From positions 27,165 through 91,164 of the forward strand of contig PGYU01000007.1 in NCBI GenBank assembly GCA_002839825.1: 64,000 nt of DNA, read 5' to 3'. Positions 4,353 through 53,111 of the stretch are shown one piece after another (position 1 is the stretch's first letter; every line of letters begins with the position of its first letter). The notes beneath the pieces are model-generated. The model was given only the letters and a program-made list of their open reading frames with translations, searched no databases and was not told where the DNA came from. Made by a program: the position numbers and the translations under genes. Source of the DNA: Ignavibacteriae bacterium HGW-Ignavibacteriae-1. GTDB lineage: Bacteria; Bacteroidota; Ignavibacteria; Kapaibacteriales; UBA2268.

Positions 4353-4637
4353 CTAAGTTTATAATTAGTTTATCAATTTAGCTTTAACTAAAATACGTAA
4401 AAGCTAAGATTTTTGCAATTATATTTTGATTAAAAATTTAAATAAAAAATTCACACAAACTTAGAATATCCGCTTTGCATTATGGTTGAAATTTAGCATA
4501 ATAAACAAGATTGCTTTTATTAAACGATATTAACATAACAAGTGCAGGCAAAAAATTAAGAAAAATTAATTTGCGCAGAATTGTTTTTTGTTTTAATTTT
4601 ACATATCATTTTCAAAACATTTTTTCGGGAGCTAATT

Positions 4638-6554
4638 ATGCGCAATTTCCTACTAATTGTACTTTTGATTATCGTTTTCGGTAATATACATTTATCGGCG
4701 CAAGTGCCTAACCAAATCAGTTGGCAAGGTGTATTGACTGACTCTCAGGGTCAAGCTTTAGACGGCACATACAACCTAACGACTAAACTCTTTAACCAAT
4801 CCGTTGGTGGCGATGCTCTTTGGATAGAACTGCATAATTCTAAGCAAATTGAAGATGGTCAGGTGAATCTAATTCTCGGGAGTATAGAAAATTTGAACTT
4901 GCAATTTAATCAACCATACTGGCTCGAAATAACTGTGGGCGCCGGGACACCCTTGAGCAGAATTCAGCTTACTTCCGTACCCTATTCCTTATATTCGGCA
5001 AATTCAAATCCTGTTATAATTAATGATTCATTAGTTTTGAAAGACTCCTTAGGTGTGACGCGAATGGTATTCAATCCAAACACAGGAACTTTCAGCATGA
5101 TGGATAATGATACAGTTTGGTATAGTATGTCGGTAAATTCGCCTGTCAAAATAACTGAAAAAATTGCAAATGATAATACATTTGAAAGATATATTGACGG
5201 ACCTGGACTGACTGTAACTCGGGTTGTAAGACCTGACGGTACAATAGAAAGTGAATCAATTTCAGAAACATCTTCAGATGGATTGACTCATGAATATTTA
5301 TCTAAAATATATGATTCAGAAGGTAGATTGATATCTAGTACTTTTATTTTCATGTATTATGATGGAGTTGGTTTTAAGCTTAAGGAAGAAATTAATAAAA
5401 CTTTCGACCCAGAATCCGAAGAAGTAATATCTGAAACATCAACAAATGAAAATGTGACTAAGGATGAACTAGTTAGCAAAACAGAGCGTTTGAATGGTGT
5501 TATCATAAGAACTATTGAAAATGCAGACGGAAAAATTGAAACGTTGACTTATAATCAAGTTGGTGCGGTACAAACTCATATGATTAGTTCAAATAATGAA
5601 AATAAAACTGAAATTATCAGCGGGACGCAAAGTACAATCGTAGAACAAACGCCGATAGGACTGTTTATTTCTAACCCGGAAAGTGATTACTCGTGTGGTT
5701 TTACTATGGGAGCATTTGGAGGTTCGTATCCATCACCAATTTGTAGCTTAAGTGTTTCAACTCCAAATGGAAATTGGACTCCGATATCTATTAATGACCA
5801 AGGTGGCACGTCAGGTTGTAGAATACATATCAATGAGTTTCTGACTGTCAACAAAACAGCAAATTTTCTGGCAAACACATCGTTTTCGAGCAATCTTACT
5901 TTATTTGCCAACCTAACAATGAGTTCTGTATCCGGTACGGCTACGCTAAAAAATACAACTTGTTCAGGATTAACTGTTAATGGACCTACAGCTTTAAATG
6001 GTGCAGCCACATGTCAAGGTCTTACTGCTACCCAGGATATTACAACTTCAGCAACAGTAAACTGTGATGATTTTGATGCATCCGGGAACGGTGAGTTTGG
6101 AGGTAATGTTCAAATAGCCGGGGATTTAGATGTTACAGGTCTAAAGAAATTCAAGATTGACCACCCCGATGACCCGCTTAACAAATCTCTGTCTCATGTT
6201 TGTATCGAATCAAACGAAGCATTAAACCAATATTCAGGAAATGTTGTGACTGACGCAAGCGGCTATGCTGTTGTGACTTTACCCGATTACGTCGAAAAAA
6301 TTAACATTGATTTCCGCTTTCAATTGACTGTAATTGGCGATTTTGCTCAAGCAATTATCTCCAAAAAAATTCAGAATAATCAATTTGAAATCAGAACTGA
6401 CAAAGCAAACATGGAAGTTAGTTGGCTGATTACTGCCAAACGCAACGATTCATACGCCAAGAACAATCCTTTCCAGGCAGTGAGTGAAAAGATCGGTGAT
6501 GATAAAGGCAAATTACTTTATAACCCGAGTAAGTTTTCTAAGCTAGGAGAATAA
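4638..6554 (+). CDS. Large secreted surface protein whose N-terminal ~110-aa domain is paralogous to the tail-fibre-domain protein at 29569 (cassette 1, gene A).
   Basis: The ORF-track start at 4581 is TTG. The first ATG at 4638 follows GGGAG and gives the signal peptide MRNFLLIVLLIIVFGNIHLSAQ. The motif ISWQGVL..G..L.GT..LT.KL...GG.A.W.E.H...G.VNL.LGS...YWLEITVG.GTPL.RI.L.SVPY is shared with the 29569 protein. Confidence 0.6.
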   Translation: MRNFLLIVLLIIVFGNIHLSAQVPNQISWQGVLTDSQGQALDGTYNLTTKLFNQSVGGDALWIELHNSKQIEDGQVNLILGSIENLNLQFNQPYWLEITVGAGTPLSRIQLTSVPYSLYSANSNPVIINDSLVLKDSLGVTRMVFNPNTGTFSMMDNDTVWYSMSVNSPVKITEKIANDNTFERYIDGPGLTVTRVVRPDGTIESESISETSSDGLTHEYLSKIYDSEGRLISSTFIFMYYDGVGFKLKEEINKTFDPESEEVISETSTNENVTKDELVSKTERLNGVIIRTIENADGKIETLTYNQVGAVQTHMISSNNENKTEIISGTQSTIVEQTPIGLFISNPESDYSCGFTMGAFGGSYPSPICSLSVSTPNGNWTPISINDQGGTSGCRIHINEFLTVNKTANFLANTSFSSNLTLFANLTMSSVSGTATLKNTTCSGLTVNGPTALNGAATCQGLTATQDITTSATVNCDDFDASGNGEFGGNVQIAGDLDVTGLKKFKIDHPDDPLNKSLSHVCIESNEALNQYSGNVVTDASGYAVVTLPDYVEKINIDFRFQLTVIGDFAQAIISKKIQNNQFEIRTDKANMEVSWLITAKRNDSYAKNNPFQAVSEKIGDDKGKLLYNPSKFSKLGE

Positions 6555-6555
6555 A

Positions 6556-7269
6556 ATGAAAACTCTATTTATTCTAATTGTATTATTTTCATCATTTTTG
6601 ATGCTACATAGCCAAGATTATATAATTAAAAAGCATGTTTTCGGTTCAAGTGCACAAACGGCATCGAATGCGGAACATGTATTTAAAAGTACTGTCGGGC
6701 AATCAACTACCGGAAATGCTGAAAATGATGACATAAAGTTATTTTCAGGCTTCTGGAAATTAGAATCCCAAGCTATAAGTTTACAGTCCATCAATCTAAT
6801 TGCAGGTTGGAACATGATTTCCACCTATCTAACACCGACTGATACATCAATCGAAATGATATTTGCTCAAATTGTGGACGATATCGTAATTGTCAAAAAC
6901 AATATAGGTCAAATCTATTATCCGGAATTTAGTATTAACGATATTGGCAATTGGAGTATTTACGAAGGCTACCAAGTTTATACAAGCCAATCCAATACGC
7001 TGGAAATATCGGGACAAGTAATCTCGCCGCAAGATACGCCTATTAATTTAGGAATCGGCTGGAGTATTGTGCCGTATTTGCGTTCAGGACCGATGAATAT
7101 CGAAGATGCTATGCAATCTTTGACTGATGATGAAGCACTCGTCATTGCTAAGAATAATCTGGGGCAAATATATTACCCGGCTTTCGGTATCAACGACATC
7201 GGGAATATGCTCGCGGGACAAGGCTATCAGATTTATTTGATTAAAACGGGAACTCTGACATACCCGTAA
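6556..7269 (+). CDS. Small secreted partner protein (cassette 1, gene B) with an internally duplicated C-terminal module shared with 32651 and 34761.
   Basis: Begins 2 nt after the upstream gene and has a signal peptide. The C-terminal module carries two ~45-aa repeats: IVKNNIGQIYYPEFSINDIGNW...GYQVY and IAKNNLGQIYYPAFGINDIGNM...GYQIY. Confidence 0.6.
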   Translation: MKTLFILIVLFSSFLMLHSQDYIIKKHVFGSSAQTASNAEHVFKSTVGQSTTGNAENDDIKLFSGFWKLESQAISLQSINLIAGWNMISTYLTPTDTSIEMIFAQIVDDIVIVKNNIGQIYYPEFSINDIGNWSIYEGYQVYTSQSNTLEISGQVISPQDTPINLGIGWSIVPYLRSGPMNIEDAMQSLTDDEALVIAKNNLGQIYYPAFGINDIGNMLAGQGYQIYLIKTGTLTYP

Positions 7270-7294
7270 TTAATAGCGATTGTGAGATATGTAA

Positions 7295-13703: not shown

Positions 13704-13710
13704 TCAGATT

Positions 13711-15105: not shown

Positions 15106-15293
15106 TAAAAGCACAAAAATCCGACGATAACAGCCCAAATACAAATCATTGATTTTAAATTCATTGCTAATAATTGTACTTCTCGATTCAGAATAATTTA
15201 GAATTTTGCCGTAAATTACGTATTTTTAAATTTGAATATTTCATTACTTGAATTTTATATATTCGTTATTGAATTTGAATTTATGAGCTTATA

Positions 15294-15578
15294 ATGCAAG
15301 ATAATAAAGATAGTAAGATAAAAGTTGAGGCGATTATAGATAATTTGGCTGATTCGTTGGCGGAAAGCGTGTTTCACGCTACTCGGATATTGTCCAAAAT
15401 TGTCGAAACAACCGAAAGATACTACGACGGCATTCACTCTCGATTTGTAGCCACTGCACAACTTCATGACAATGGCAAAATTGGTATGCCCGATACTTCG
15501 TTGTTCCAGTATCAAAACGAGATGAGTGACAAGGAATTAAACCAACATAATGTTTTATCACTTGAAATCAAAAGTTAA
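15294..15578 (+). CDS. Hypothetical small protein.
   Basis: 94-aa ORF with an ATG start, lying 5 nt upstream of holA. No family was recognised. Confidence 0.3.
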   Translation: MQDNKDSKIKVEAIIDNLADSLAESVFHATRILSKIVETTERYYDGIHSRFVATAQLHDNGKIGMPDTSLFQYQNEMSDKELNQHNVLSLEIKS

Positions 15579-15583
15579 TAATA

Positions 15584-29144: not shown

Positions 29145-29234
29145 GGAGAGGTGGCAGAGAGGCTGAATGCACCGGTTTGCTAAACCGACGTAGTGGTACA
29201 ACCGCTACCGAGGGTTCGAATCCCTCCCTCTCCG
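29145..29234 (+). tRNA. tRNA-Ser (anticodon GCU) with a long variable arm.
   Basis: The cloverleaf folds by eye: acceptor GGAGAGG/CCTCTCC, anticodon stem-loop CCGGT-TTGCTAA-ACCGG, long variable arm, T-loop GGTTCGAATCC. Confidence 0.8.
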
Positions 29235-29332
29235 CTGAGTGAAATCATAAGCCCTTGTAATATACAATGTTACGAGGGCTTGTTTTTTGTTTCCAACATA
29301 TTACCAAAAGAATGCCAAACCGTCATTTTTGT

Positions 29333-29357
29333 CCCGTCAGGTGTTACACCTGACGGG
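29333..29357. repeat. Perfect palindrome CCCGTCAGGTGTTACACCTGACGGG. An identical copy lies at 33397-33421 with a half copy at 33370-33386. Related CCGTCAG hairpins lie at 46946-46969 and 46991-47013, with a degenerate copy at 56797-56816.
   Basis: Read directly from the sequence. All copies lie in 3' intergenic positions. Confidence 0.6.
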
Positions 29358-29568
29358 AGGATACAGTGTTGTTTAAATGAATTAATATTTTTAAATAACT
29401 TAAGTTATGTAAAATAATGAATCTACAAAATCTGATAATTTTATAATTTAATTCAAATTTCTCTTGTTTATATCCAAAAGTTTACTATTTTTAAAACATC
29501 TAATTTATTAATATGTAGACAATTATACGTTCTTTGATTTTAATAAATTTCAAATAGGGAGTCTAAGT

Positions 29569-32500
29569 ATGAAACAATGTACTTTCCTTGCAGCAATACT
29601 TTTTTGTATTACGAGCTCTTTATATTCTCAAATTCCCCAAACCATTAGCTGGCAGGGAATTTTGCAGGATGCTGATTCAAAAAATCTTTCAGGCACCTTT
29701 AGCCTGACTGTCAAGTTATACGATGTCGCTTCAGGCGGCACCGCTATTTGGAACGAAACACACAGCAGCGTAGTTATCGCTGACGGACTTGTCAATCTTA
29801 CTCTTGGAAGCGTTACACCTTTTAGTATTAATTTCGGCGATGAATACTGGCTCGAAATCACCGTAGGAACCGGCACTCCGCTTCCAAGGATTAAACTCAG
29901 TTCTGTGCCGTATGCAATGCATTCAAAGACGGCTGAATCTGCAAATGAAACTGACCCGACATGGAGTGGAAATGCCAATACAACGGGTACTATAAGTAGA
30001 AGCGGTAAAGTTGGTATTGGAACATCATCCCCAACGGCTTTACTGCATATTTTTGATTCAGAAACTACTGCGGGAGATGTTCTATTTGTGGGGAATATTG
30101 ATTGGACAACGCCTAGGAATCCTCCCACTTCCGGTGCAGGTACACGCATGATGTGGTATCCGGATAAAGCGGCAATTAGAGCAGGCTATATTTCGGGAAA
30201 TCACTGGGATATGAGCAATATTGGGATGTCATCAGTTGCTATGGGTTACAACACTATTGCAAGCGATCACGGAGCCACGGCTTTTGGTTCAGGAACTGAA
30301 GCTTCTGGATATGGTTCTACTGCTTTTGGAATTTTGACTACAGCACCGGGGAACGTCGCAACTGCTTTCGGAAATAATACGTCTTCAACAGGAATTGCTA
30401 CCACCGCAACGGGACACAGCACTACAGCATCGGGTGATTATTCATTTAGCATGGGATATGGAACCCAAGCCTTGGGTCAATTTTCATTATCAATGGGAAA
30501 AGAAACTTCGGCTCTATCAGGCTATGAAGTAGTTTTAGGGTCATATAATACTGAATACGTGCCCGAAAATGCATTCGGTTGGAGTGAAAATGACCGCTTA
30601 TTTGTAATAGGAAACGGCGTGGGTGATTTTGCTCCAAGCAATGCAATGACCGTGTTAAAAAACGGCAAGGTGGGAATTGGAACCGACAACCCACAATATC
30701 CGCTTCACGTGAATACTCCGGGAGTATTTACCGGAATACAGATGACCACTGATGCAGCGGGTACCACCATGAGTGATGGCTTGATTATTGGCATGCAGTA
30801 CCAGTCAAATGAACCTTCCAATCGTTATGCAACAGTACTGAACAAGGAAAATTCACCATTGCTTTTAGGAACAAATAATAATTATCAGGGCGACTTGACC
30901 ATCCTACCAGGTGGGAATATTGGGATTGGCATTAATCCGCCCACTACGCGGCTCGACATCAACGGTCAAGTTCGTATTCGTGGTGGCAGTCCGGGCGCAG
31001 GAAAAGTGTTGACAAGTAGTGCTAATGGCACTGCTACTTGGCAAACTAAAAGTTTAGAATTGCCATTTTCTTCAACAATATCAAGCAGTGGAACGCTTTT
31101 CTATATTAAGAATAATGAATATTTAGGTTCAGGAATTTATGGCTACGGTGTATTTGGTGTAACCGGCGAAGCTCATGATGGCGGTATTGGAGTAGGTGGA
31201 TACGGTGGATTAGGAGTAGAAGGTGTGTCAAAATCTGCAGGAGGGGTTGGAGTTTATGGACGAGTTCAAATTTCAGGAACAGCAATCAAGGGTAAGGTAG
31301 ATAATCCCAATGATTTTTCAGGATACTTTTTGGGTGGAAAATTTTATACTTCAAGTCAGGTTGGAATAGGCACAGAAAGTCCCTCGGCTCTTCTGCATGT
31401 TCATGGAACTGGTTATAGTGGAGGTAATGTTGTTTTTACGGGCGAATATTTAGATTCGTATATTAGCCAAGCACCCGTTGAGGGCTCGGGTACGCGCATG
31501 ATGTGGTACCCAAATAAGGGTTCATTCCGAGCGGGACGTGTAACAAGCACGCAATGGAATAAAAGTAATATGGGAGATTATTCCACAGCATTTGGATACG
31601 ACACTAAGGCATCCGGATATGGCTCTATTGCTTTAGGATACTCATCTACTGCATCTAACACTGCTGCATCGGCAATCGGATTTAATACTATTGCCTCCGG
31701 TAATGTTTCCACTGCAATTGGTTATTCCGCCACAGCTTCAGGATATGCTTCCACTGCAATTGGTTATTACGCCACAGCTTCAGGGTTTGCTTCCACTGGA
31801 ATGGGGTATAACACTACCGCGAAATCAGGATATGAAACTGTAGTCGGTAGTTGGAATACGGATTACACTCCTGTTTCAACATCAGGTTGGAATTCTAGTG
31901 ATAGACTGTTTGTAATTGGAAATGGCACTGCAAGTACATCACGTAGTAACGCCATGACAGTATTAAAGAATGGGAAAATAGGCATAGGAACAGCATCACC
32001 TAGCGAACTATTGCATATAAATAATTCTACCGGAACTGCTAAATTGCGAGTTTCATCAGCGTCCACAGCCCTATCGGAGCTTACTTTTTATAGCGGGAGC
32101 ACTTATCTTGGCGCAATAGGTAGTGACAATACAAGTAATTATTTATTTATTTATCATGGTGGAAATATTATTTTCAAAAATGGCAGAATTGGTATTCAAA
32201 CTGAAACAAATCCCACATTTGCCCTACATTTACCAAATAGTACAAGTGATGGTACCGGCAGAGGACGCGCAAATGCATGGACAACTTACAGCGATAGAAG
32301 GATTAAAACAGCCACTGAAGAAATTCAATATGGACTTAGCGAAATAATGCAACTTCAACCGGTAAAATATTTCCAACATAATTCAATATTTGACGATGGT
32401 AAATTAGTAATTTCCGATATTGGGGCAAGCGATATTGGTTTTATCGCACAAGATATTTTCAAAATAATTCCTGAAATTGTCAGCGTTCCCGATAATGAAA

Positions 32501-32637
32501 ACGCTGAACTTTGGGGGTTGAATTATGAAAAGCTCACTCCAATACTTGTAAAAGCTATTCAAGAGCAACAAATGAAAATAGACGAACTCGAGCGGAAACT
32601 CGAACTACTTTTGCAAAAATTTTCTGAAAATAAATAA
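29569..32637 (+). CDS. Tail-fibre-domain surface protein with a shared N-terminal domain, Gly/Ser/Thr-rich repeats and a C-terminal S74-type intramolecular chaperone domain (cassette 2, gene A).
   Basis: The signal peptide and N-terminal domain are paralogous to 4638-6554. Repeats include YGSTAFG and GYSATASGYASTAIGY. The C-terminus DIGFIAQDIFKIIPEIVS...LNYEKLTPILVKAIQEQQMKIDELE matches the chaperone-of-endosialidase (peptidase S74) signature. Confidence 0.75.
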   Translation: MKQCTFLAAILFCITSSLYSQIPQTISWQGILQDADSKNLSGTFSLTVKLYDVASGGTAIWNETHSSVVIADGLVNLTLGSVTPFSINFGDEYWLEITVGTGTPLPRIKLSSVPYAMHSKTAESANETDPTWSGNANTTGTISRSGKVGIGTSSPTALLHIFDSETTAGDVLFVGNIDWTTPRNPPTSGAGTRMMWYPDKAAIRAGYISGNHWDMSNIGMSSVAMGYNTIASDHGATAFGSGTEASGYGSTAFGILTTAPGNVATAFGNNTSSTGIATTATGHSTTASGDYSFSMGYGTQALGQFSLSMGKETSALSGYEVVLGSYNTEYVPENAFGWSENDRLFVIGNGVGDFAPSNAMTVLKNGKVGIGTDNPQYPLHVNTPGVFTGIQMTTDAAGTTMSDGLIIGMQYQSNEPSNRYATVLNKENSPLLLGTNNNYQGDLTILPGGNIGIGINPPTTRLDINGQVRIRGGSPGAGKVLTSSANGTATWQTKSLELPFSSTISSSGTLFYIKNNEYLGSGIYGYGVFGVTGEAHDGGIGVGGYGGLGVEGVSKSAGGVGVYGRVQISGTAIKGKVDNPNDFSGYFLGGKFYTSSQVGIGTESPSALLHVHGTGYSGGNVVFTGEYLDSYISQAPVEGSGTRMMWYPNKGSFRAGRVTSTQWNKSNMGDYSTAFGYDTKASGYGSIALGYSSTASNTAASAIGFNTIASGNVSTAIGYSATASGYASTAIGYYATASGFASTGMGYNTTAKSGYETVVGSWNTDYTPVSTSGWNSSDRLFVIGNGTASTSRSNAMTVLKNGKIGIGTASPSELLHINNSTGTAKLRVSSASTALSELTFYSGSTYLGAIGSDNTSNYLFIYHGGNIIFKNGRIGIQTETNPTFALHLPNSTSDGTGRGRANAWTTYSDRRIKTATEEIQYGLSEIMQLQPVKYFQHNSIFDDGKLVISDIGASDIGFIAQDIFKIIPEIVSVPDNENAELWGLNYEKLTPILVKAIQEQQMKIDELERKLELLLQKFSENK

Positions 32638-32650
32638 ATAGGAATTAATT

Positions 32651-33367
32651 ATGAAAATAATATTTATTGTTTTATTAATGAGCGTAATTAGTTTGCATTC
32701 ACAGACATATAAAATTAAAAATTATGTGATGGGTAGCTCTGCTGCGACTGTTTCCAATGACGATTTTAATTTTAGAAACACATTAGGACAGCCCGCAATT
32801 GGCAAAATCCAGAACGTAGATAATATTATAGGTTCGGGGTTTTGGTACACAATCGGTAAAACGGCTGATGGTATGCATATTATATATTTAAACCTCGGTT
32901 GGAATCTGATTTCCACCTATGTAGAGCCGGAAATAGCTGCACTTGAAAACATTTTTTCCGAAATTGAAGGTAGCACTGTCATCGTGAAGAATAATTCCGG
33001 GCAGATTTACTATCCCGAGTTTGATATCAATGACATTGGGAATTGGGACGTCAAGCAGGCTTATCAAGTCTATATGTCGAAGGCTGAGATGCTCACGATT
33101 CCGGGCGAGAAAGTGGTGCCTGAAACGACCGAAATAACTCTTTCGACGGGTTGGAATATGCTCGCATATCTCCGAGATAATGCATTGGATATTGAGATTG
33201 CACTTGCTTCACTCGTTGCGGATGACAAGCTCGTCATCGCAAAGGACAACATGGGCAACGTCTTCTATCCCGCTTTCGATATCAATATGATTGGCAATAT
33301 GCTCCCCGGGCAGGGCTACCAGATATATCTGATAAGCGGAGCAACGCTGACGTATCCGGAGAATTAG
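32651..33367 (+). CDS. Small secreted partner protein (cassette 2, gene B) with a shared, internally duplicated C-terminal module.
   Basis: Paralogue of 6556-7269. The C-terminal ~155 aa are ~94% identical to the C-terminus of 34761-36545. Confidence 0.6.
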   Translation: MKIIFIVLLMSVISLHSQTYKIKNYVMGSSAATVSNDDFNFRNTLGQPAIGKIQNVDNIIGSGFWYTIGKTADGMHIIYLNLGWNLISTYVEPEIAALENIFSEIEGSTVIVKNNSGQIYYPEFDINDIGNWDVKQAYQVYMSKAEMLTIPGEKVVPETTEITLSTGWNMLAYLRDNALDIEIALASLVADDKLVIAKDNMGNVFYPAFDINMIGNMLPGQGYQIYLISGATLTYPEN

Positions 33368-33698
33368 AACCCGTCAGGTGTGAGACTTAAATCGTCCCGT
33401 CAGGTGTTACACCTGACGGGAGGAATTTTATTACTACCTAATTCATACCCCGAACTCCCAGTCTTCAAGCTCAATCTAATATGCTGCTACAAAATAAAAT
33501 ATTCAGATGATTAGTTATGTATAATATTATTTTAAGTGTTAATGAGAAAATAGATTTGCATTTAATAAAATAATAGTTATATTTGCCTAAGTGTTTTGTT
33601 CATAAGTGTGAAAGTATATGTGAATTATAAATACAAGTCCGCTAAATGATTAATACACAGAGTTTTAATATATTCTTAAAAATATTGGGAGTGCTTTT

Positions 33699-34751
33699 AT
33701 GAATAGGGTTTTGATGATTTTGATAATTATTGTCATTTCGACAATTAATTTGTATTCTTACAAAGCTATTATTGTTCAGAATGGCAATGATGCAAAATTG
33801 TACCAAGTTACCGAGTTGCAAAAAGCACTTGATTCGGCAGCAGTTGGTTCGGACGTGTATCTTCCCGGCTATGATTTTTCCGGCACAACTATCACAATTA
33901 GAAAAAAGCTTAACATATACGGAACAGGTTTTTATTCATCTGCAACAAATGAAACAGGAAAGACCATTCTGGGAACCCTAACTTATAATACGGGAAGCGA
34001 CAGCACTTTATTAGAAGGCGTTTATATAGATAACGTACTCAGAATTTCATATACTGCAACTCACAAAGTTTCAAACTTGATGTTTAGAAAATGTAATATA
34101 AGGGGACTGAATTTAGCAAATGGTGATACAAGCAAATTTCACACTTTCAAAGATTGCATTTTGTATAATCCAACAATCTCCTCGAAAGCAGTAGGTATCA
34201 AAGTTTACAATTCGATAATTGACCCCAATCCAGGTGCTACAATTTATGGGCTTATTTTTGAATCATATAATACAAGTTATATTAATTGTATACTGCATTA
34301 TCCTGATGTCAATGGTTCAAAAGGTTTATTTTGGGCGTCTAATTCTGCTTTTAACCTTTTTGAGAATTGCATATTCTTGAATACTTATGAACTTAAAAGT
34401 CTGGGCTTAAATAACGGATTTGTAAATTGTTTGTCTGTCTATAATCAGACTGACTGGGGAGTTGATAATTACAATGTAGATTGCCTTATTAATCAAAACA
34501 AGGATTCGATATTTGTTGATACATTGGATATTTATAGTTTTTCTGAAGATTTCGATTATCACCTCAATAATAATTGTTTAGGAAAGGATTATGGAACTGA
34601 TGGAACAGATCTAGGGATTTATGGTGGTACTTATCCATACAAAGAATTAGGTATTCCAATTATTCCATATATTAAGAATTATAATTCAGCTAATAAAACT
34701 GTGAATGGAACGCTTGAAGTGAACGTAGAAGTTGAATCTCAAACTGAATAA
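33699..34751 (+). CDS. Hypothetical secreted protein, possibly a right-handed beta-helix fold.
   Basis: Signal peptide. Repetitive N/G/T-rich ~22-aa segments with regularly spaced hydrophobics and Cys (CNIRG, CILYN, CILHY, CIFLN). Confidence 0.4.
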   Translation: MNRVLMILIIIVISTINLYSYKAIIVQNGNDAKLYQVTELQKALDSAAVGSDVYLPGYDFSGTTITIRKKLNIYGTGFYSSATNETGKTILGTLTYNTGSDSTLLEGVYIDNVLRISYTATHKVSNLMFRKCNIRGLNLANGDTSKFHTFKDCILYNPTISSKAVGIKVYNSIIDPNPGATIYGLIFESYNTSYINCILHYPDVNGSKGLFWASNSAFNLFENCIFLNTYELKSLGLNNGFVNCLSVYNQTDWGVDNYNVDCLINQNKDSIFVDTLDIYSFSEDFDYHLNNNCLGKDYGTDGTDLGIYGGTYPYKELGIPIIPYIKNYNSANKTVNGTLEVNVEVESQTE

Positions 34752-34760
34752 GGATAAAAA

Positions 34761-36545
34761 ATGAGAAACATTTTACTTTATTCCTTTATTTTTCTTTCCG
34801 TTAATGTTGTTTTTGCAAATAAAATAACAAATTATGAATATTGGATTGATTACGCTTTTGCAAATAGAATTCAAAATGTAATTAACGATGCAGATTCAAA
34901 TCTAAATTTATCAGAAAGTATAGATTTAACATATTTAGTCCAAGGAATTCACACATTCAATATACGTTTTAAGGATAGTTTAAATAAATGGTCTGTTGCT
35001 CAAACAAGTTTTTTCTACAAGCCGGCTAATGATTCACTAATGGATAATTATAATTACCCAAATAATACTCTCACAGCTTATGAATATTGGGTTGATGATG
35101 ATTTTGTAAATAGAAAATATGGGGTGATAAACCCAAATACATCTCTTTTGAATATTGATTCTTTCTTCTTATTTGAGAATATAAATTCAGGAATTCATAA
35201 ATTCGTAATCAGATTCAAAGATAACTATGGAAAGTGGTCTGTTGCGCAAACAAGTTATTTCTACCATAGGGCAAATGATTCATTAATGGATAATTATAAT
35301 TATCCAAATAACACTCTAATCGCTTATGAATATTGGGTTGATGATAATTATATTGATAAAAAATATGAGACGTTAAATCCTAATACATCAATAATGAATC
35401 TTGATTCTAACTTTTTGTTGGAAAATTTAAATTCAGGAATCCACAAATTTGTAATCAGGTTCAAAGATAACTATGGCAAATGGTCTATTTCTCAAACCAG
35501 TTATTTTTATATTCCTGATAATTCTGAATTTACGGATGTCAGTTATACATCGAACAAAATTTACGGATATCGCTATTGGTTTGATAACAAGCCGGAAACA
35601 ATTTTTACATTGATATTAGATAATAAAGAAGAAACATTTTCCGAAATAATTAATTTGCAATGTCCCGAATTGGATACATTGGGATTGCACGTGCTACACA
35701 TGCAATATATGGATTCAGTTGGGAAATGGAGTGTAGCAGTATCGGATACTTTTATTTATGAAGGATTTGAGGTATCAAAACCAATATTAAAATCCCCGAC
35801 AGATAATGCAAATGTAAAAGCTGATACAATTTTAAAATGGAATATTATCCCATATATTAGCAAATATTATATTCAAATCTCAGATACAAATGATTTTTCT
35901 AATATTTTGGTGTATGATTCACTTACAAATGCAACACAATATGAAATAAATTTTATTGATTTAAAAACTTATTATTGGCGAGTTAAAGCAGAATATGAGG
36001 GCATTTATAGTGAATGGTCGGATGTTTGGGCATTTACAACTGTTGATGCTGCGCAAATTATTTCACTCAACCTTGGTTGGAATCTGATTTCCACCTATGT
36101 AGAGCCGGAATTTGCTGCACTCGAAAACATTTTCTCCGAAATTGAAGGAAGCACTGTCATCGTGAAGAATAATTCCGGGCAGATTTATTATCCTGAGTTT
36201 GATATTAATGATATCGGCGATTGGGACGTGAAGCAGGCTTATCAAGTTTATATGTCGAAGGCTGAAATGCTCACGATTCCGGGCGAGATGGTGGTGCCTG
36301 AAACGACCGAAATCACCCTCACAACGGGATGGAATATGCTTGCATATCTCCGCGATAATGCTATGGATATTGAGAATGCTCTTGCCACGCTCGTTGCGGA
36401 CGACAAACTCGTCATCGCAAAGGACAACATGGGCAACGTCTTCTATCCCGCATTTGAAATCAACATGATAGGCGACATGCTACCCGGGCAGGGCTATCAA
36501 ATATATCTGACAAGCGGAGCAACGCTGACCTATCCGGAGAATTAG
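34761..36545 (+). CDS. Multi-repeat secreted protein with four ~81-aa tandem repeats, an FN3-like domain and the shared C-terminal module.
   Basis: Repeats carry YEYWVDD...NSGIHKFVIRFKDNYGKWSVAQTSYFY. The FN3-like stretch reads YYWRVKAEYEGIYSEWSDVWAFTT. The C-terminal 160 aa match 32651-33367. Confidence 0.6.
   Translation: MRNILLYSFIFLSVNVVFANKITNYEYWIDYAFANRIQNVINDADSNLNLSESIDLTYLVQGIHTFNIRFKDSLNKWSVAQTSFFYKPANDSLMDNYNYPNNTLTAYEYWVDDDFVNRKYGVINPNTSLLNIDSFFLFENINSGIHKFVIRFKDNYGKWSVAQTSYFYHRANDSLMDNYNYPNNTLIAYEYWVDDNYIDKKYETLNPNTSIMNLDSNFLLENLNSGIHKFVIRFKDNYGKWSISQTSYFYIPDNSEFTDVSYTSNKIYGYRYWFDNKPETIFTLILDNKEETFSEIINLQCPELDTLGLHVLHMQYMDSVGKWSVAVSDTFIYEGFEVSKPILKSPTDNANVKADTILKWNIIPYISKYYIQISDTNDFSNILVYDSLTNATQYEINFIDLKTYYWRVKAEYEGIYSEWSDVWAFTTVDAAQIISLNLGWNLISTYVEPEFAALENIFSEIEGSTVIVKNNSGQIYYPEFDINDIGDWDVKQAYQVYMSKAEMLTIPGEMVVPETTEITLTTGWNMLAYLRDNAMDIENALATLVADDKLVIAKDNMGNVFYPAFEINMIGDMLPGQGYQIYLTSGATLTYPEN
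34830..35790. repeat. Tandem ~243-bp (81-aa) intragenic repeats, about four units. Units 2 and 3 are near-identical at the DNA level.
   Basis: For example, aatgattcactaatggataattataattacccaaataatactct (35027) against aatgattcattaatggataattataattatccaaataacactct (35270). Confidence 0.6.
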
Positions 36546-36553
36546 AATGATTC

Positions 36554-36594
36554 AAAGCTTCCGAAGGAGTAAAACCTTCGGAAGCTTTTTTTCT
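36554..36594 (+). terminator. Rho-independent terminator.
   Basis: AAAGCTTCCGAAGG-agtaaaa-CCTTCGGAAGCTTT followed by TTTTT. It lies directly after the stop at 36545. Confidence 0.75.
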
Positions 36595-36707: not shown

Positions 36708-37751
36708 ATGAAAATTTTGATAGTGGTACTTTTGTTTTTAGGGGCTTTTGATGTGTTCGCACAGAGCAGGGAGGTGAATCAACATCTGCAGATGCTGGCG
36801 AACGGCAAAACTGATGAGGTGAGGTCGGCGATTCCGGAACTTTTGGCTCGCTATCCGAATGACCCGGGCATCATGTTGCTGCATGGTAGTGTGGTCGAGG
36901 ATATGAAGCTGTCGCTGGATATTTATCGGCGTATCGTCACTGATTACGCAGGGAGCGAGTGGGCGGACGATGCTCAATGGCGCATTGTGCAGCATTATGC
37001 TATTTGGGGCGACACGAGCAAGGCTAAGTCCGAGCTCGATATTCTGCGTGCCAAGCATCCCTATTCGACATACTTAACAGTTGCTGCAGATGTAGTCAGG
37101 AGTTCAGTCGCATATGCCAAGAGCAACACGAAAGCTATAGCACGAACCGAAAATCAGCGCCCAATTATTGACGAACCCGCCAAACAAGATTTCAAGCCGC
37201 TTACAAGTGAAGCATCGCCTAACAGATTAGCTGATTCAAAACCCGCTGATAATGTTGCGATTGACAATAAATTGAAAGAAATTTCACCTGACATCAATGC
37301 AGAACCAACTCCAACGAGAACAGAACCCACTCCATCGAGAACGGAAACCGCTCCATCGAGAACGGAAACCGCTCCATCGAGAACTGAAACCACTCCCACA
37401 AGAACTGAACCCACTCAAACCAGAACTGAACCAGTTTCAGCGCAAGAAGTTAAACCGGTCACGCAAATTGACTCGCCTGAAATAAGCGATGTGACGATTG
37501 TGGAAGATGTGCCGAAAGAGATATTTTACGGCTTGCAGGTAGGGATTTATAGCGAGAAAGCTACTGCGGAATCTGAAAAGGAGAAGTTTTTGGCAAAGCG
37601 TATGCGGACAACGGTTGCGGAGAAAAATGTCGCCGGAAGACTGAGATATGCGGTTGTGATTGGGCATTATTCCTCGCTCGAAGCTGCCGAAGCTGCTAAA
37701 ATAATCGTCGGGCAACAGTGCGAATGCGAGCCTTTGATTTACGAAAAATAG
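36708..37751 (+). CDS. SPOR-domain protein with a TPR-like N-terminal region and a low-complexity TPSRTE hexapeptide tandem repeat linker.
   Basis: Signal peptide. The C-terminus FYGLQVGIYSEKATAESEKEKF...YAVVIGHYSSLEAAEAA is SPOR-like. An 18-bp DNA period runs through 37310-37430. Confidence 0.55.
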   Translation: MKILIVVLLFLGAFDVFAQSREVNQHLQMLANGKTDEVRSAIPELLARYPNDPGIMLLHGSVVEDMKLSLDIYRRIVTDYAGSEWADDAQWRIVQHYAIWGDTSKAKSELDILRAKHPYSTYLTVAADVVRSSVAYAKSNTKAIARTENQRPIIDEPAKQDFKPLTSEASPNRLADSKPADNVAIDNKLKEISPDINAEPTPTRTEPTPSRTETAPSRTETAPSRTETTPTRTEPTQTRTEPVSAQEVKPVTQIDSPEISDVTIVEDVPKEIFYGLQVGIYSEKATAESEKEKFLAKRMRTTVAEKNVAGRLRYAVVIGHYSSLEAAEAAKIIVGQQCECEPLIYEK

Positions 37752-43969: not shown

Positions 43970-46801
43970 ATGAACATAATAAGTCATTTTAAAGATAGAG
44001 GAAAAGCAGTCACCATAACTTATAGCTTGGTTTTTGCTTTAATTGCCTACTTAGCATTTACGACACTCAACTCTGCGGTACAAGTAACAATGCCCGAAGA
44101 GAACGACGAATGCATGATGTGCCATGACGACAAAGATTTGAAAGGTACGCGCAAAGGCAAGAATATTTCGATGTATGTCAATCCCAATCACGTTTTGGGT
44201 TCAGTTCACGCTGAAGTAAAATGCGTTGATTGCCATACAGATTTAGCAGGAGTGGAATTGCCTCACGAGGACGATTTGAAGCCCGCAACTTGTGGTAAAT
44301 GCCACACTAAGCAGCAAAAGGATTTCGACATGAGCTTTCATGGTGTAGCACTCAAAAAAGGCGACCCTTTGGCGCCTAATTGTCAGTACTGCCACGGTAG
44401 CCACCAAATTGTTGATGCAAAGCACGAAAAATCGCCCGTGCAACCCCTCAAAATACCATTCATGTGTGGGAAATGCCACCAAGAAGGTGCACCCGTACAA
44501 ATGTCTAGGAATATTCCCCAATCGCATATCTTGGAAAATTATTCTGAGAGTATTCATGGTGAAGGTCTTTTCAAGCGCGGTTTAGTTGTGACTGCTACTT
44601 GCGTTTCGTGTCATACTGCACATGCGATTTTGCCACATACTGATAAGAGGTCTTCGATTGCACGTAATAATATTGCCGCAACGTGCTCTCAATGTCATGC
44701 GAGAATTGAAGATGTGCACAAAAAAATCATTGATGGCGAATTATGGGAGAAAGAAGCTCATACGCTGCCTGCTTGTGTTGATTGCCACCAACCTCATAAA
44801 GTTCGGAAATCGTTTTATGATGTAGGTTTAGCAAAAGCCGAGTGTTTGAATTGTCACCAAGATAAAAATATTAAAGCAAGCAAAGGCGGTCGCTCTCTGC
44901 ATGTTGATATAAGCAAATTAGACCATTCGGTACATTCAGACCTTGCTTGCAGTAAATGCCATATTGAGGTTCGCCCATCTAAAATTCGCTCTTGCGAAAC
45001 AATTACAACAAAAGTTAATTGTGGAAGTTGCCATGACAAAGTAAACGATAATTATATGCAAAGCAGCCATGGGAAGCTATTCTTAAGTGGTGAAAGTGAT
45101 GCTCCAACTTGTGTAACATGCCACAATGACCACGAAGTGCTCCCGAAGATTAATCCAATGTCTAAAACTTTTGCTATAAATATTCCTAACCTATGCTCAG
45201 AGTGTCACCAAGACGGACATCAAGCAGCGGTCAGGATGGAAGACAAGGTACAACATCTTACAGAAACTTATTCGGAGAGTATTCACGGGCAGGGCTTGAA
45301 ATCCGGCAGACTCAAAGTAACGGCGAATTGTTCGGATTGTCACTCTGCGCATATGGAAGCAAATCATGAAAATCCCGTATCCTCGACTCATAAGGACAAT
45401 ATTAGCACCACTTGTGGCAAGTGCCATTGGGGAATTCAGACTCAATTCGATAAAAGTATCCACTCGCCAATGGTATCAAAATCGGAAGATGACTTGCCAA
45501 ATTGTAACACATGCCATGTGGCTCACTCAGTAGTTGACCCATCAAAAGATGAGTTCAGATTGTCCATGTTGAATACCTGCGGCAAATGCCATGAAAAAAT
45601 TACTCACTTATATTTCGATACATATCACGGGAAGGCGTCACTTCTTGGTTCGGGCAAAGCTGCTAAATGCCAAGATTGCCATAGCGCCCATATGATATTA
45701 CCAACATCACACGCAAATTCGACACTTTCACGAGACAACATTGTCGAAACATGTGCAAAATGCCATCCCGCAGCTAATAAAGGCTTTACAAGGTATTTAA
45801 CTCATGCAACTCATCACGACCCGGAAAAATACCCACTGCTTTTCATCACATTTTGGGGTATGACAATACTTCTTCTCGGCACATTTCTGGTTTCATGGTT
45901 GCACACATTATTGTGGTTGCCAAAGTCATTAAAGATGCGAAAAGAGATGATGGTACTCAAAGCCGCTGGGCATTCTGGCAAACGCGTTAGGAGATTTACA
46001 CCATTGAACCGAATTTTGCACGTCACAATGATATTATGCTTCCTGACTCTTGCCGCCACAGGGATGATGCTCAAATTCTCATATGCTTGGTGGGCACAAT
46101 TCAGCGTTAAGTTGATTGGCGGAGTGGAAGTTACAGGCTTCTTCCATCGCTTTGCTGCAATAGTATTGTTCGGTGTATTCTTTACTCATATTTTCGATTT
46201 AATATTCAACAAACGTAAAGAATTTAGTTCATGGAAAGAAATGCTTTTGGGTTCGGATTCTCTTTTGCCAAATAAAAAAGATTGGGAAGATTTTATCGGC
46301 TCAATGAAATGGTTCTTCAACAAAGGACCGCGCCCGCAATACGGAAGATGGACTTATTGGGAAAAATTCGACTATTTTGCAGTATTTTGGGGGATTTTCG
46401 TAATTGGCTCAACCGGGCTTATGCTCTGGATACCCGAGTTTTTCACCAAATTTATGTCCGGACAATTCATTAACGTTGCTACTATTATTCATAGTGACGA
46501 GGCATTGCTTGCAGCAGGATTCATTTTCACCATACATTTCTTCAATACGCACTTCCGTCCGGAAAAATTCCCTATGGATACCGTAATTTTCTCAGGAAGT
46601 TATGATGTAGAAGAATTCAAATTCGACAGACCCGCCGAATATGAAAAATTGGTCGAAGAAGGGAAATTGGAAGAACTTTACGTTGACGCACCGACTCCGA
46701 CACAAAAGAAAGTTCATTCAATCTTTGGATGGGCAGCTTTATTAACCGGATTATTAATAGTCTTTTTAATAATTTATTCGATTATTAGCATTAACTTTTA
46801 A
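43970..46801 (+). CDS. Membrane-anchored 19-heme c-type cytochrome fused to a C-terminal FdnI/HydC-like diheme cytochrome b domain (CbcL-like).
   Basis: I count 19 CxxCH motifs between residues 48 and 600. The C-terminal 330 aa hold 4-5 TM helices with [25 protein letters not shown] and [18 protein letters not shown], matching the Ni/Fe-hydrogenase/formate-dehydrogenase b-type cytochrome family. Confidence 0.8.
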
Positions 46802-50524: not shown

Positions 50525-50858
50525 GTTGATACAACAAATTAAATTAAGTCAATCAAATAAAATATTTCACTTTGCATAATTTTATTCTTACATTTTATAA
50601 AATATTAATAGATGTTGAACTACACATTATTATAAGGCATATTCAGCATCAAAAATAAAATATTCGAATATCAGTTCTAATTCTCAGGATAAGTAAGCGT
50701 TGCACCGCTTATCAGATATATTTGATAGTCGTAACAAATTATAATTTAACAATTCATTCTATAGCTTTAAGTCATCGGTCCTTTCAGTTGTTACAAAGAC
50801 AGGACGAAACAAAAGAGCATGCTTTACGGGCTTGTAGCAACAGAACGGACATAAATTC

Positions 50859-51680: not shown

Positions 51681-53111
51681 ATGAAAATACTATACTTTGT
51701 TGTTACATTTATGTTGATAATCGCCAATTATGGGACTTTAAGTTCGATAGAAAACGATGATTGCATGATGTGTCATTCTGATCCCGATATGTATATGGAA
51801 AAGGGGCGTTCAAAAATTTCTCTATGGGTGGATAATTCAAAGTTTATGTTTTCTGCCCATAAAAATGTGAAATGTATAGACTGCCACAAGGGATTCGACC
51901 CCGATGATATCCCGCATAAAGAAAATATTGGGAAAATTGATTGCAACTCATGTCATCAAGGAGTCGAAAAAAAGCATACCTTCCACCCATGGATGGCAGA
52001 TGCTCCTTTGCAAAACGATTGCAAAAAATGTCATGGCTATCATTATGCAACTCCGGCTAAGGGCAAAGGCAGCAAGGTCTCCGGCATTCATTCTCTTCAA
52101 CAATGCGGCACTTGCCATCAAGATGTGGTTGACGAATATATGAAATCGGAGCATTACAAAGCATTATTGAGCATCTCGGACGAAAATGCCCCCGATTGCA
52201 ATTATTGCCATAGTAAACCCATCACTAAGGGCTGGATTGGAAATTATATTGAGCGAAAAGCAAACCAAAACCAAGTTTGTACAGATTGCCATAGTCACGA
52301 CACCAAAAATCCCTCGGTCATCAAAACGATAACAAATTCTAATTCGAGGCATTTCCAACTGAAAGCTGAAGGTAAAGAGCACGCTGCAGTATGTACGGAT
52401 TGCCACGGATTTCATAATATTAAGAAAAATGAGGATTTTGAAGCTCGTCTCAGTGTCAAAAATTCATTCTCTGCGTGTGGCAAATGCCACGTTCATATCG
52501 CCCAAGAATATCAAAACAGTATCCACGGGTTGGCTCAAATCAAAGGCAATATGGATGCTGCATCGTGCGTCAGTTGCCATTTCGAACATGATTTGAAAAA
52601 GGTTCCACACGTAGATGAAGCCATTTTCAAAAGTAATAAATTAAACAAACAATTTGCCATAGACAGCAAAATGATTTATTGCGTTTCTTGCCATGGCGAT
52701 TCGGAATTAATGGGCAAAAGCAATATCAAATCATTGTTGGAATCACATTCGTGGTTGCCGGAACTCGAAAGCCATTTTTCCGCAGTATCTTGTTTCGATT
52801 GTCATTCGAGTTATACGGTACCGTATTTATCGCATAATATATTACCTTTGGAAAAAAGTGTCAAAACTTGCAATCCATGCCACGAGCAGGACATGAATTT
52901 GAAATCTAAATTGGCAAATTATTACAAGACACGAAAAACCGGAGAATCCGGAATAATTGACGGCACAATAGGCGGTGGCAGTTACGTTGGCTTGTCTCGG
53001 AGTGTAATTCTTGATAATCTAAGTTTTATACTTCTGGGAGGCGTATTTATTGGTTTACTCGCTCATGGTTATATTAGATGGTACTTCAGAAGCAAAAAGG
53101 AATCAAAATGA
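51681..53111 (+). CDS. 13-heme c-type cytochrome with N- and C-terminal membrane anchors.
   Basis: I count 13 CxxCH motifs. The N-terminus CMMCHSD resembles the 43970 protein's CMMCHDD. A C-terminal hydrophobic helix is present. Confidence 0.8.
   Translation: MKILYFVVTFMLIIANYGTLSSIENDDCMMCHSDPDMYMEKGRSKISLWVDNSKFMFSAHKNVKCIDCHKGFDPDDIPHKENIGKIDCNSCHQGVEKKHTFHPWMADAPLQNDCKKCHGYHYATPAKGKGSKVSGIHSLQQCGTCHQDVVDEYMKSEHYKALLSISDENAPDCNYCHSKPITKGWIGNYIERKANQNQVCTDCHSHDTKNPSVIKTITNSNSRHFQLKAEGKEHAAVCTDCHGFHNIKKNEDFEARLSVKNSFSACGKCHVHIAQEYQNSIHGLAQIKGNMDAASCVSCHFEHDLKKVPHVDEAIFKSNKLNKQFAIDSKMIYCVSCHGDSELMGKSNIKSLLESHSWLPELESHFSAVSCFDCHSSYTVPYLSHNILPLEKSVKTCNPCHEQDMNLKSKLANYYKTRKTGESGIIDGTIGGGSYVGLSRSVILDNLSFILLGGVFIGLLAHGYIRWYFRSKKESK

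What the first reader, a model, noticed from the sequence alone, without database searches (positions are those of the whole stretch)
36066..36545. ~480-bp, ~90%-identical DNA duplication grafting the partner C-terminal module onto a third, unrelated repeat protein
32888-33367 and 36066-36545 align end to end through the stop codon, giving ~94% aa identity with differences mostly at synonymous positions. The module in 34761-36545 is noticeably GC-richer than the extremely AT-rich body of the same gene (34761-36060). That points to recent acquisition by recombination rather than common descent of whole genes. Two direct repeats 3.2 kb apart can also mediate deletion or gene conversion, producing fibre-partner variants.
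Basis: seen in the sequence. Interest (0 to 1): 0.6.

Follow-up and report, generated by a model that had tools for sequence, protein, structure and literature searches.

The report
Shared C-terminal domain on surface proteins
Two neighbouring secreted-protein genes of a Kapabacteria-like bacterium end in the same 160-residue domain; it is an unnamed but very widespread portable module that is old in this lineage and exchanged between genes by recombination, which is ordinary surface-protein modularity, not a recent import.

Summary
32888-33367 and 36066-36545 are 89.8% identical in DNA and 93.7% in protein, and 39 of the 49 differences fall at third codon positions. GC steps from 28% in the gene body to 46.5% in the module.

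The reading "recent acquisition" is only partly right.
- The two genes share only this module, so the gene is a mosaic.
- A sister genome (L001) has the same 594-aa gene, the same junction and the same synteny, so the graft predates the split of the two lineages.
- The A-B synonymous divergence (dS 0.49) is not smaller than the divergence between the two genomes.
- The GC step occurs in every copy, including the supposed donor.

The module is two ~78-aa repeats. It has no match in Pfam, NCBIfam, PHROGs or PDB sequences, and no Foldseek match in PDB or BFVD. A profile search finds 12,807 cluster representatives. The module lies either at the extreme C-terminus or before an ~145-aa domain plus a T9SS sorting domain.

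Almost all more distant homologues of the gene-B body end in a T9SS sorting domain instead. Module copies group by genome lineage rather than by locus, and L001 shows significant conversion tracts. One gene-B orthologue carries a partner-type module. No conversion tract is detectable between the two window copies themselves.

The function is inferred, not shown: probably a common surface-anchoring or docking handle linked to MAT-like fibre cassettes.

The parts
36066..36545 (+). Module copy B: C-terminal 159 residues plus stop of the 594-aa gene. Two ~78-aa repeats, 36% identical to each other.
   Evidence: In the gene-B AF2 model this region has pLDDT about 60-83.
32888..33367 (+). Module copy A: C-terminal 159 residues plus stop of the 238-aa 'partner'.
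   Evidence: 89.8% nt and 93.7% aa identity to copy B. The AF2 module region, residues 71-238, has block-mean pLDDT 80-96.
34761..36545 (+). Gene B (594 aa): signal peptide, four ~82-aa beta-rich repeats resembling Y_Y_Y-type repeats (246-nt tandem units at 34818-35434), an FN3-like domain, then the module.
   Evidence: (some body homologues carry PF07495 Y_Y_Y in their precomputed Pfam lists). Identical to CVV22_06920 of Ignavibacteriae bacterium HGW-Ignavibacteriae-1.
33699..34751 (+). 350-aa secreted protein that ends 9 nt before gene B. It travels with gene B in L001, in L009 and probably in L010 (a 265-aa contig-truncated ORF in the same position), so the two are probably one operon.
32651..33367 (+). 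Partner A (238 aa): signal peptide, a ~55-aa low-confidence beta N-part (Y-x-I-K...GSSA...GQ...SGFW), then the module. It starts 13 nt after the fibre gene.
   Evidence: Identical to P0001 (CVV22_06910).
29569..32637 (+). Secreted fibre (1022 aa): signal peptide, a conserved ~120-aa N-domain, YadA-head repeats, and a Peptidase_S74 intramolecular chaperone. Resembles an S74-type MAT fibre.
4581..6554 (+). Second fibre-like gene with the same N-domain (50% id) but a non-S74 tip. The real start is probably the ATG at 4638.
6556..7269 (+). Partner C (237 aa). Its module (6805-7266) is the diverged third copy, 55-57% aa identical to copies A and B.
   Evidence: (P0009).
50577..50728 (-). Relic: the last ~51 nt of a module, the stop codon and the downstream flank. 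It is orthologous to the 3' end of L001's 521-aa Fib_succ_major + module gene. The rest of that gene is gone from the window genome.
36554..36588 (+). Intrinsic-terminator hairpin plus T-run right after copy B. It is shared with the module copies kA, kB and L002A, so it is part of the original repeat unit.
33394..33424 (+). 31-nt perfect palindromic element that replaces the terminator after copy A. An identical copy lies at 29331-29361.
29145..29235 (+). tRNA-Ser(GCT) at the upstream edge of the fibre cluster. Homology with L001 ends here, and the flank is inverted between the two genomes.

Best explanation
The 480-bp repeat encodes a self-contained, portable protein domain made of two ~78-aa beta-rich repeats. 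It belongs to a very large domain family that no searched library names. The family occurs in Ignavibacteriota/Kapabacteria, Bacteroidota, KSB1 and a few Chloroflexota. There it ends many unrelated secreted proteins, or sits in front of an ~145-aa domain plus a T9SS sorting domain.

In an ancestor of this Kapabacteria clade, a repeat protein of a family that usually ends in PKD plus a T9SS sorting domain acquired an FN3-like domain plus this module, together with its terminator. That is C-terminal module exchange by recombination.

The near-identity to the neighbouring partner gene's module is not a sign of a fresh graft. It results from two things. Purifying selection is strong (dN/dS about 0.07). 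Episodic gene conversion or module replacement among the module-bearing genes of one genome homogenised copies A and B (and C in the sister genome) until about the time the window and L001 lineages split. Since then the two window copies have drifted about 10% apart, almost only at synonymous sites.

Steps shown: the repeat, the mosaic structure, the age of the graft, selection, the breadth of the family and its positions in proteins, clustering by lineage, conversion tracts in L001, and module replacement in P0171.

Steps inferred: because the same handle sits on many different extracellular bodies, and because a minimal partner (N-part plus module) is encoded directly after MAT-like surface-fibre genes in three phyla, the module most likely provides a common attachment or docking function at the cell surface and not a catalytic one.
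For: Repeat and selection.

Age of the graft: L001 has the same gene order and junction, and the block 32557-36584 is colinear at 88% nt identity.

Mosaic structure: 3 of the 202 body homologues besides the window's own protein carry the module. Most of the rest carry Por_Secre_tail. Only 4 module domains, in 2 of 80 related metagenome loci, were found.

Family size and position:
- 12,807 representatives at E <= 1e-3, and 1,944 at E <= 1e-30.
- Of 96 complete module ORFs, 43 are terminal and 50 are followed by 179-241 aa.
- In every extended example scanned, the extension ends in Por_Secre_tail.
- One relative's genome has at least 11 copies on different bodies.

Concerted evolution:
- Informative sites inside the module: 13 group copies by genome, 2 by locus, 2 crosswise. 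Upstream of the junction, all group by locus.
- NJ bootstrap: (kA,kB,kC) 82%; (wA,L002A,wB) 68%.
- Sawyer-type tracts: kB-kC p = 0.0005, kA-kC p = 0.005.
- The P0171 body and FN3-like domain are 66-70% identical to wB, but its module is only 47% identical to wB and 79% identical to a partner-type protein, P0012.

Link to fibres: a partner follows a gene with the fibre N-domain at both window loci and in L001, L002, L005, L019 and L056 (KSB1). In L033 (Chloroflexota) and L045 a fibre-N-domain gene also lies upstream of the module-bearing gene; in L045 only the module part matched, so a partner-type protein is not established there.

T9SS use: the window genome does use T9SS cargo domains on other proteins.
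Against: - Between the two window copies themselves there is no significant conversion tract (p = 0.82).
- Only 3 sites are shared exclusively by wA and wB, about what parallel third-position changes could produce. The by-genome site pattern may therefore be driven largely by the L001 lineage.
- Bootstrap supports are moderate (68-88%).
- Orthologous modules are more diverged at synonymous sites (dS 0.50-0.54) than their flanks (0.20-0.33), which the model does not predict outright.
- P0012 and P0171 come from different samples, so conversion within one genome is not shown for that case.
- The function is not supported by any homology. There is no hit in Pfam, NCBIfam, PHROGs or PDB sequences, and no Foldseek hit in PDB or BFVD.
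- It is unknown how proteins ending in the module without a T9SS domain cross the outer membrane.
Confidence: 0.65

Rival explanations
1. One reading: the module was recently copied from the partner gene, or imported from a GC-richer source, onto gene B by recombination. The GC step marks the recent join.
For: 90% DNA identity confined to the module, a sharp 5' boundary and a sharp GC step.
Against: - The same fusion, junction and synteny occur in L001, and in 66%-identical orthologues.
- The A-B dS of 0.49 is at least as large as the between-genome dS of the flanks.
- The GC step is present in the supposed donor and in all copies.
Confidence: 0.08
2. An old duplication with purely vertical, independent evolution. 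The copies stay similar only because the domain is strongly constrained, and no gene conversion occurs.
For: dN/dS is 0.05-0.10. There is no tract between wA and wB. Differences are evenly spread.
Against: - Constraint on the protein does not explain similarity at synonymous sites.
- It does not explain the 13: 2: 2 site pattern or the clustering of kA, kB and kC.
- It does not explain the significant tracts in L001.
- It does not explain a gene-B orthologue whose module is far more diverged than its body and matches a partner-type module.
Confidence: 0.15
3. The module is a divergent or tandem T9SS C-terminal sorting domain, so the duplication simply reflects a shared secretion signal.
For: It is C-terminal, each repeat is about the size of a CTD, the organisms use T9SS, and in gene B it occupies the place that a CTD holds in homologues.
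Against: - There is no Por_Secre_tail or TIGR04183 hit.
- hhalign of the module profile against a CTD profile gives probability 0.2%.
- In half of the family the module is followed by a genuine CTD.
- The predicted repeats contain helices.
Confidence: 0.07
4. An assembly or binning artefact, with collapsed strain variants creating a false duplicate.
For: The source is a metagenome-assembled genome.
Against: Three further long assemblies have the same structure with 0-4 mismatches. The same arrangement occurs in a different species. Both copies are intact ORFs under purifying selection.
Confidence: 0.01

Closest known systems
Cellulosomal dockerin modules (type I), from general knowledge
   Same: A small C-terminal module built from an internal tandem duplication. 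It is appended to many unrelated secreted proteins of one organism. Copies within an organism resemble each other more than copies across organisms do.
   Different: There is no sequence relation: no Pfam Dockerin hit appears even at E <= 10. The module is 159 aa and beta-rich, not a ~70-aa EF-hand pair. No cohesin-like receptor has been identified. Binding has not been shown.
T9SS type A C-terminal sorting domain (PF18962 / TIGR04183)
   Same: A C-terminal element shared by many cargo proteins in the same phyla. In gene B the module takes the position that the CTD holds in homologues.
   Different: It is not homologous. It often lies upstream of a real CTD.
Bdellovibrio MAT (mosaic adhesive trimer) chimeric fibres, PMC10769870
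   Same: The neighbouring fibres have a signal peptide, a conserved ~120-130-aa beta-rich N-domain, and S74 or non-S74 tips that are swapped between paralogues. Tip swapping is the same kind of modular evolution.
   Different: The NCBIfam Bdello_MAT_N matches are below cut-off (27 and 17 bits against 60). The terms searched in the MAT paper turned up no downstream partner gene or module. The duplication studied here is in the partner and in a non-fibre protein, not in a fibre.
Shared adhesin domains of Porphyromonas gingivalis rgpA / kgp / hagA; modular exchange of phage tail-fibre C-termini (general knowledge, not tested here)
   Same: Near-identical C-terminal blocks are shared by otherwise different surface or secreted protein genes of one genome, and recombination between them keeps them alike.
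   Different: The domains are different and unrelated. Here the block is an uncharacterised domain, and the last homogenisation is old (dS about 0.5).

Membership tests
T9SS type A sorting domain (Por_Secre_tail, PF18962/TIGR04183) | C-terminal ~75-aa beta-sandwich recognised by the Pfam/TIGRFAM model | tested here: not met
   Partner A, partner C and gene B have no hit at E <= 0.1. The 10 module sequences have none at E <= 10. hhalign against a CTD alignment gives probability 0.2%.
T9SS type A sorting domain | Lies at the extreme C-terminus of the cargo | tested here: inconclusive
   43 of 96 modules are terminal, but 50 of 96 are followed by ~145 aa plus a true CTD.
Concerted evolution / gene conversion between paralogous modules | Paralogues within a genome group together against their positional orthologues | tested here: met
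   Site patterns are 13: 2: 2. Bootstrap for (kA,kB,kC) is 82% and for (wA,L002A,wB) 68%. The P0171 module is 79% identical to a partner-type module but 47% identical to the gene-B orthologue's module.
Concerted evolution / gene conversion between paralogous modules | Statistically significant shared tracts (Sawyer-type test) | tested here: inconclusive
   Met in L001 (kB-kC p = 0.0005; kA-kC p = 0.005). Not met for the window pair wA-wB (p = 0.82).
MAT-type surface fibre (for the adjacent fibre genes) | Signal peptide followed by a conserved ~130-aa beta-rich N-domain | tested here: inconclusive
   The two window fibres share the N-domain at 50% identity. The NCBIfam Bdello_MAT_N hits of 27.1 and 17.2 bits are below the cut-off of 60.
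MAT-type surface fibre | C-terminal S74 chaperone/protease (S74 subgroup) or an alternative tip (NS74) | tested here: met
   Peptidase_S74 lies at residues 908-971 of the 1022-aa fibre. The 657-aa fibre has none. Definitions are from PMC10769870.
Phage tail-fibre assembly protein or chaperone (for the 'partner') | Match to a phage tail-assembly or chaperone family | tested here: not met
   Neither partner has a PHROG match. BFVD Foldseek has no hit at E <= 0.001; the best is E 0.044, TM 0.25. Both partners carry signal peptides.
Dockerin | Pfam Dockerin_1 match or paired Ca-binding EF-hand segments | tested here: not met
   No Pfam hit of that kind at E <= 10. The predicted fold is mainly beta.
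Dockerin-like function (common docking handle) | Specific binding to a cohesin-like receptor | not testable with these tools
   This needs binding assays or complex prediction.

The most novel reading that the evidence does not exclude
The module is a new kind of common docking or anchoring handle of FCB-group bacteria. In this reading, a two-repeat C-terminal domain tethers many different secreted proteins to one surface receptor, as dockerins do. The minimal 'partner' (N-part plus module) is encoded right after MAT-like fibre genes in Kapabacteria and KSB1, and apparently in Chloroflexota. It could be the still-unidentified adaptor that anchors the conserved N-domain of such fibres to the cell. 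Module-terminal proteins that lack a T9SS domain would then reach or stay at the surface through this handle.
Probability: 0.15. Interest if true: 0.7.

Novelty: new member of a known kind. Interest (0 to 1): 0.35.

Why it matters
As a duplication it is ordinary. Surface-protein genes commonly share modules and exchange them by recombination.

Two things are of some value:
- It gives a clean worked example in an uncultured lineage of C-terminal module replacement (T9SS-type end replaced by FN3-like plus module) followed by concerted evolution. It also warns that a GC step plus a sharp homology boundary does not by itself date an acquisition.
- It draws attention to a very large domain family (more than 12,000 clusters at 50% identity). 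No searched library names it, and neither PDB nor BFVD held a structural match. Its bimodal position (terminal, or before X plus a T9SS CTD) and its conserved pairing with MAT-like fibre genes suggest a role in surface display that could be tested.

Tried and rejected
- A metagenome scan for an A/B recombinant (an A-specific 5' anchor, a 468-480 nt gap, then the stop context) found nothing. It did not even find the parental arrangement, so it is uninformative.
- A second metagenome scan with the gene-B alignment found no close orthologues; the best was 40% identical.
- The gene-B AF2 model was too poor (mean pLDDT 61) for a fold search.
- T9SS-CTD homology of the module was tested and rejected.
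- A phage origin for the partner or module was tested and rejected.
- I considered that L002's partner, which has no 350/594 genes downstream, is a deletion product of A x B recombination. Five 3' sites link wB with L002A, but L002's flank is A-type and the contig ends soon after, so this cannot be decided.
- GC-biased gene conversion was considered as the cause of the high GC3. It fits the trend (0.49-0.55 in the near-identical copies against 0.41-0.43 in diverged ones), but it was not tested.
Full report
**1.

The only long direct repeat in 27-40 kb is 32857-33156 / 36035-36334, with spacing 3178 nt. Alignment extends it to 32857-33369 / 36035-36547.

- 49 of 480 nt differ (89.8% identity).
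- 10 of 159 residues differ (93.7% identity).
- 39 of the 49 differences are at third codon positions.
- 33 of the 43 differing codons are synonymous.
- NG86 gives dN 0.033, dS 0.49, dN/dS 0.07.

Both copies are the 3' ends of intact ORFs with signal peptides. One is a 238-aa "partner" (32651-33367) that starts 13 nt after a 1022-aa fibre gene. The other is a 594-aa gene (34761-36545) that starts 9 nt after a 350-aa gene.

GC steps from 28.3% (GC3 0.22) in the gene-B body to 46.5% (GC3 0.55) in the module.

Three further long assemblies of the same population carry the identical arrangement, so it is not an assembly artefact.

**2. Context**

The window matches Ignavibacteriae bacterium HGW-Ignavibacteriae-1, a Kapabacteria-like MAG. 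Partner A equals P0001 (CVV22_06910) and gene B equals P0169 (CVV22_06920).

The fibre at 29569-32637 has a signal peptide, YadA-head repeats and a Peptidase_S74 chaperone. It matches phage tail-fibre PHROGs in its C-terminal half.

A second fibre-like gene (4581-6554) shares only the ~120-aa N-domain, at 50% identity, and has a different tip. It too is followed by a 237-aa partner (6556-7269), whose module is the diverged third copy (55-57% aa).

The pattern of signal peptide, conserved N-domain and S74 or non-S74 tips is that of the Bdellovibrio MAT fibres (PMC10769870). The NCBIfam Bdello_MAT_N matches are below cut-off, however.

The cluster abuts tRNA-Ser(GCT). It consists of two transcription units, each closed by a hairpin.

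**3. What the module is**

It consists of two ~78-aa repeats that are 36% identical to each other. AlphaFold2 with an 18-sequence alignment predicts it confidently as a mainly beta domain with short helices (block-mean pLDDT 80-96). The partner's N-part is not confidently predicted.

It has no match in any of the following:
- Pfam, even at E <= 10.
- NCBIfam or PHROGs.
- PDB sequences.
- Foldseek against PDB or BFVD.

It is not a T9SS sorting domain; hhalign gives probability 0.2%.

Despite that, it is very common. A profile search finds 12,807 cluster representatives at E <= 1e-3 and 1,944 at E <= 1e-30.

In species-representative genomes it occurs in Kapabacteria/Ignavibacteriota, Bacteroidales, Flavobacteriales, KSB1 and a few Chloroflexota. 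One Kapabacteria-like MAG has at least 11 copies, on proteins of 240 to 2088 aa.

Its position in proteins is bimodal. Of 96 complete module ORFs, 43 end within 9 residues of the module and 50 continue for 179-241 residues. In every scanned example that extension is a conserved ~145-aa domain plus Por_Secre_tail.

The bodies in front of it are unrelated extracellular domains. They include PKD, fn3, beta-helix, BNR/sortilin, Kelch, subtilase and FISUMP.

**4. Gene B is a mosaic, but an old one**

The gene-B body retrieves 202 homologues. Only the window's own protein and three close orthologues (87%, 66% and 66% identical) end in the module. Nearly all others that have a recorded Pfam hit (23-37% identical, mostly Bacteroidota) end in a T9SS sorting domain, often after PKD.

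Among 80 related metagenome loci, only 2 contain the module. The window genome itself has ordinary T9SS cargo. So the C-terminus of this lineage's gene was exchanged for an FN3-like domain plus the module.

The sister genome L001 (Kapabacteria M9949) has the same 238-350-594 order and the same junction. It also has a colinear 4-kb block at 88% nt identity. The graft therefore predates the split of the two genomes.

The A-B dS (0.49) is not smaller than the dS of orthologous flanks between the genomes (0.20-0.33).

The GC step is not a scar of import into gene B. Partner A shows it (32.5 to 45.6%), as do copy C and every orthologous copy. A GC of 46% is typical of ordinary genes in the window. 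The 28% body is lower than any whole ORF there.

**5. Exchange between copies**

Site patterns. Inside the module, 13 informative sites group copies by genome (wA=wB, kA=kB). Two group them by locus and 2 crosswise. Just upstream of the junction, every site groups by locus.

Third copy in L001. A third near-identical copy sits on a 521-aa FISUMP protein. NJ trees give (kA,kB,kC) 82% and (wA,L002A,wB) 68% bootstrap.

Conversion tracts. A Sawyer-type permutation test finds tracts for kB-kC (module nt 321-432, p = 0.0005) and kA-kC (249-336, p = 0.005). It finds none for wA-wB (p = 0.82). Only 3 sites are shared exclusively by wA and wB.

At greater depth. The gene-B orthologue P0171 has a body and FN3-like domain 66-70% identical to the window's. 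Its module is only 47% identical to wB, yet 79% identical to that of a 239-aa partner-type protein, P0012. That indicates module replacement.

My reading is as follows. The copies were homogenised up to about the time of the window/L001 split. Conversion then continued in L001. In the window lineage the two copies have since diverged independently under strong purifying selection.

The repeat unit originally included the downstream terminator. wB, kA, kB and L002A still share it. After wA it has been replaced by a 31-nt palindromic element that also occurs at 29331.

**6. Gain and loss**

At 50728-50577 on the minus strand lie the last ~51 nt of a module, its stop codon and its flank. This is orthologous to the 3' end of L001's FISUMP + module gene, and the rest of that gene is deleted.

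Fibre number varies between genomes (1, 2 or 4). The cluster is also rearranged relative to TraB-SDR-tRNA-Ser.

No deletion between the two window repeats was seen in the other assemblies. A metagenome scan for a recombinant was uninformative.

**7. Function (inferred)**

Five things point to a shared attachment or docking role rather than catalysis:
- The same handle sits on many different extracellular bodies.
- Purifying selection on it is strong.
- Its sequence is lineage-specific.
- Module-bearing genes cluster together (window, L001, L098).
- Partner-type genes lie next to genes with the fibre N-domain at both window loci, in L001/L002/L005/L019, in KSB1 (L056) and apparently in Chloroflexota (L033).

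The MAT paper states that the anchor of the MAT N-domain is unknown. The partner is a candidate adaptor, but nothing here tests that.

It is also unexplained how module-terminal proteins without a T9SS domain leave the periplasm.

**8. Verdict**

The phenomenon is a new member of a known kind, namely modular, concertedly evolving surface-protein genes. The most useful by-product is the delineation of a large, unnamed domain family.

Noticed in passing
29331-29361 and 33394-33424: A 31-nt perfect palindromic element (GTCCCGTCAGGTGTTACACCTGACGGGAGGA) occurs twice at 100% identity. One copy follows tRNA-Ser. The other has replaced the terminator after partner A, with a half-copy at 33370-33381. 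A variant follows the terminator in L002. It may be a small mobile or REP-like hairpin element.
   Followed up: partly
50577-50728 (minus strand): Relic of a module-bearing gene: the last ~51 nt, the stop codon and the flank. It is orthologous to the 3' end of L001's 521-aa Fib_succ_major + module gene, and it sits downstream of a RibD_C gene. The deletion breakpoint lies inside the module.
   Followed up: yes
37281-37442 (SPOR-domain gene 36708-37751): A 21-nt (7-aa, TEPTPSR-like) tandem array. Two ENA assemblies of the same population have one unit fewer (340 versus 347 aa), so the array length varies.
   Followed up: partly
13711-15144 (minus strand): A terminase large-subunit gene (Terminase_6N/6C) lies between a TonB-dependent receptor gene and housekeeping genes. 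The same neighbourhood is conserved in a relative (L011). No other phage genes were looked for.
   Followed up: no
29145-29305 and L001:19248-20713: The fibre cluster abuts tRNA-Ser(GCT). Relative to TraB-SDR-tRNA, the cluster is inverted or relocated between the window and L001, and the number of S74 fibre genes differs (1 versus 4; 2 in L002 and L005).
   Followed up: partly
4581-6554 and 29569-32637 (first ~120 residues after the signal peptide): The two fibres share a conserved N-domain (50% id) with weak, sub-threshold similarity to NCBIfam Bdello_MAT_N. A fibre-N-domain gene lies upstream of the module-bearing gene in Kapabacteria-like MAGs, KSB1 (L056) and Chloroflexota (L033). This looks like a conserved fibre + partner cassette.
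   Followed up: partly
32888-33367 / 36066-36545 versus flanks: Orthologous modules (window versus L001) have dS 0.50-0.54, although the flanking orthologous genes have dS 0.20-0.33. Module GC3 is 0.49-0.55 in the near-identical copies and 0.41-0.43 in diverged ones. GC-biased conversion or import from other paralogues is possible; neither was tested.
   Followed up: partly
P0021, P0049, P0053, P0063, P0064, P0073, P0079 (residues between the module and the T9SS CTD): A conserved ~145-aa domain (…TGNN…G.EIG.Y…LIGSG…VT.WGD…DGA…) always separates the module from the T9SS sorting domain in the extended architecture. It has no Pfam match either.
   Followed up: no
L098 (Ga0222627_1000029) 2943-15900: Three adjacent genes each carry module + X + about 230 aa. 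One of them has a gene-B-like repeat body. Module-bearing genes therefore cluster in other lineages too.
   Followed up: no
43970-46801 and 53078-55270: Two large multi-haem cytochrome c proteins fused to cytochrome b561-like membrane domains.
   Followed up: no
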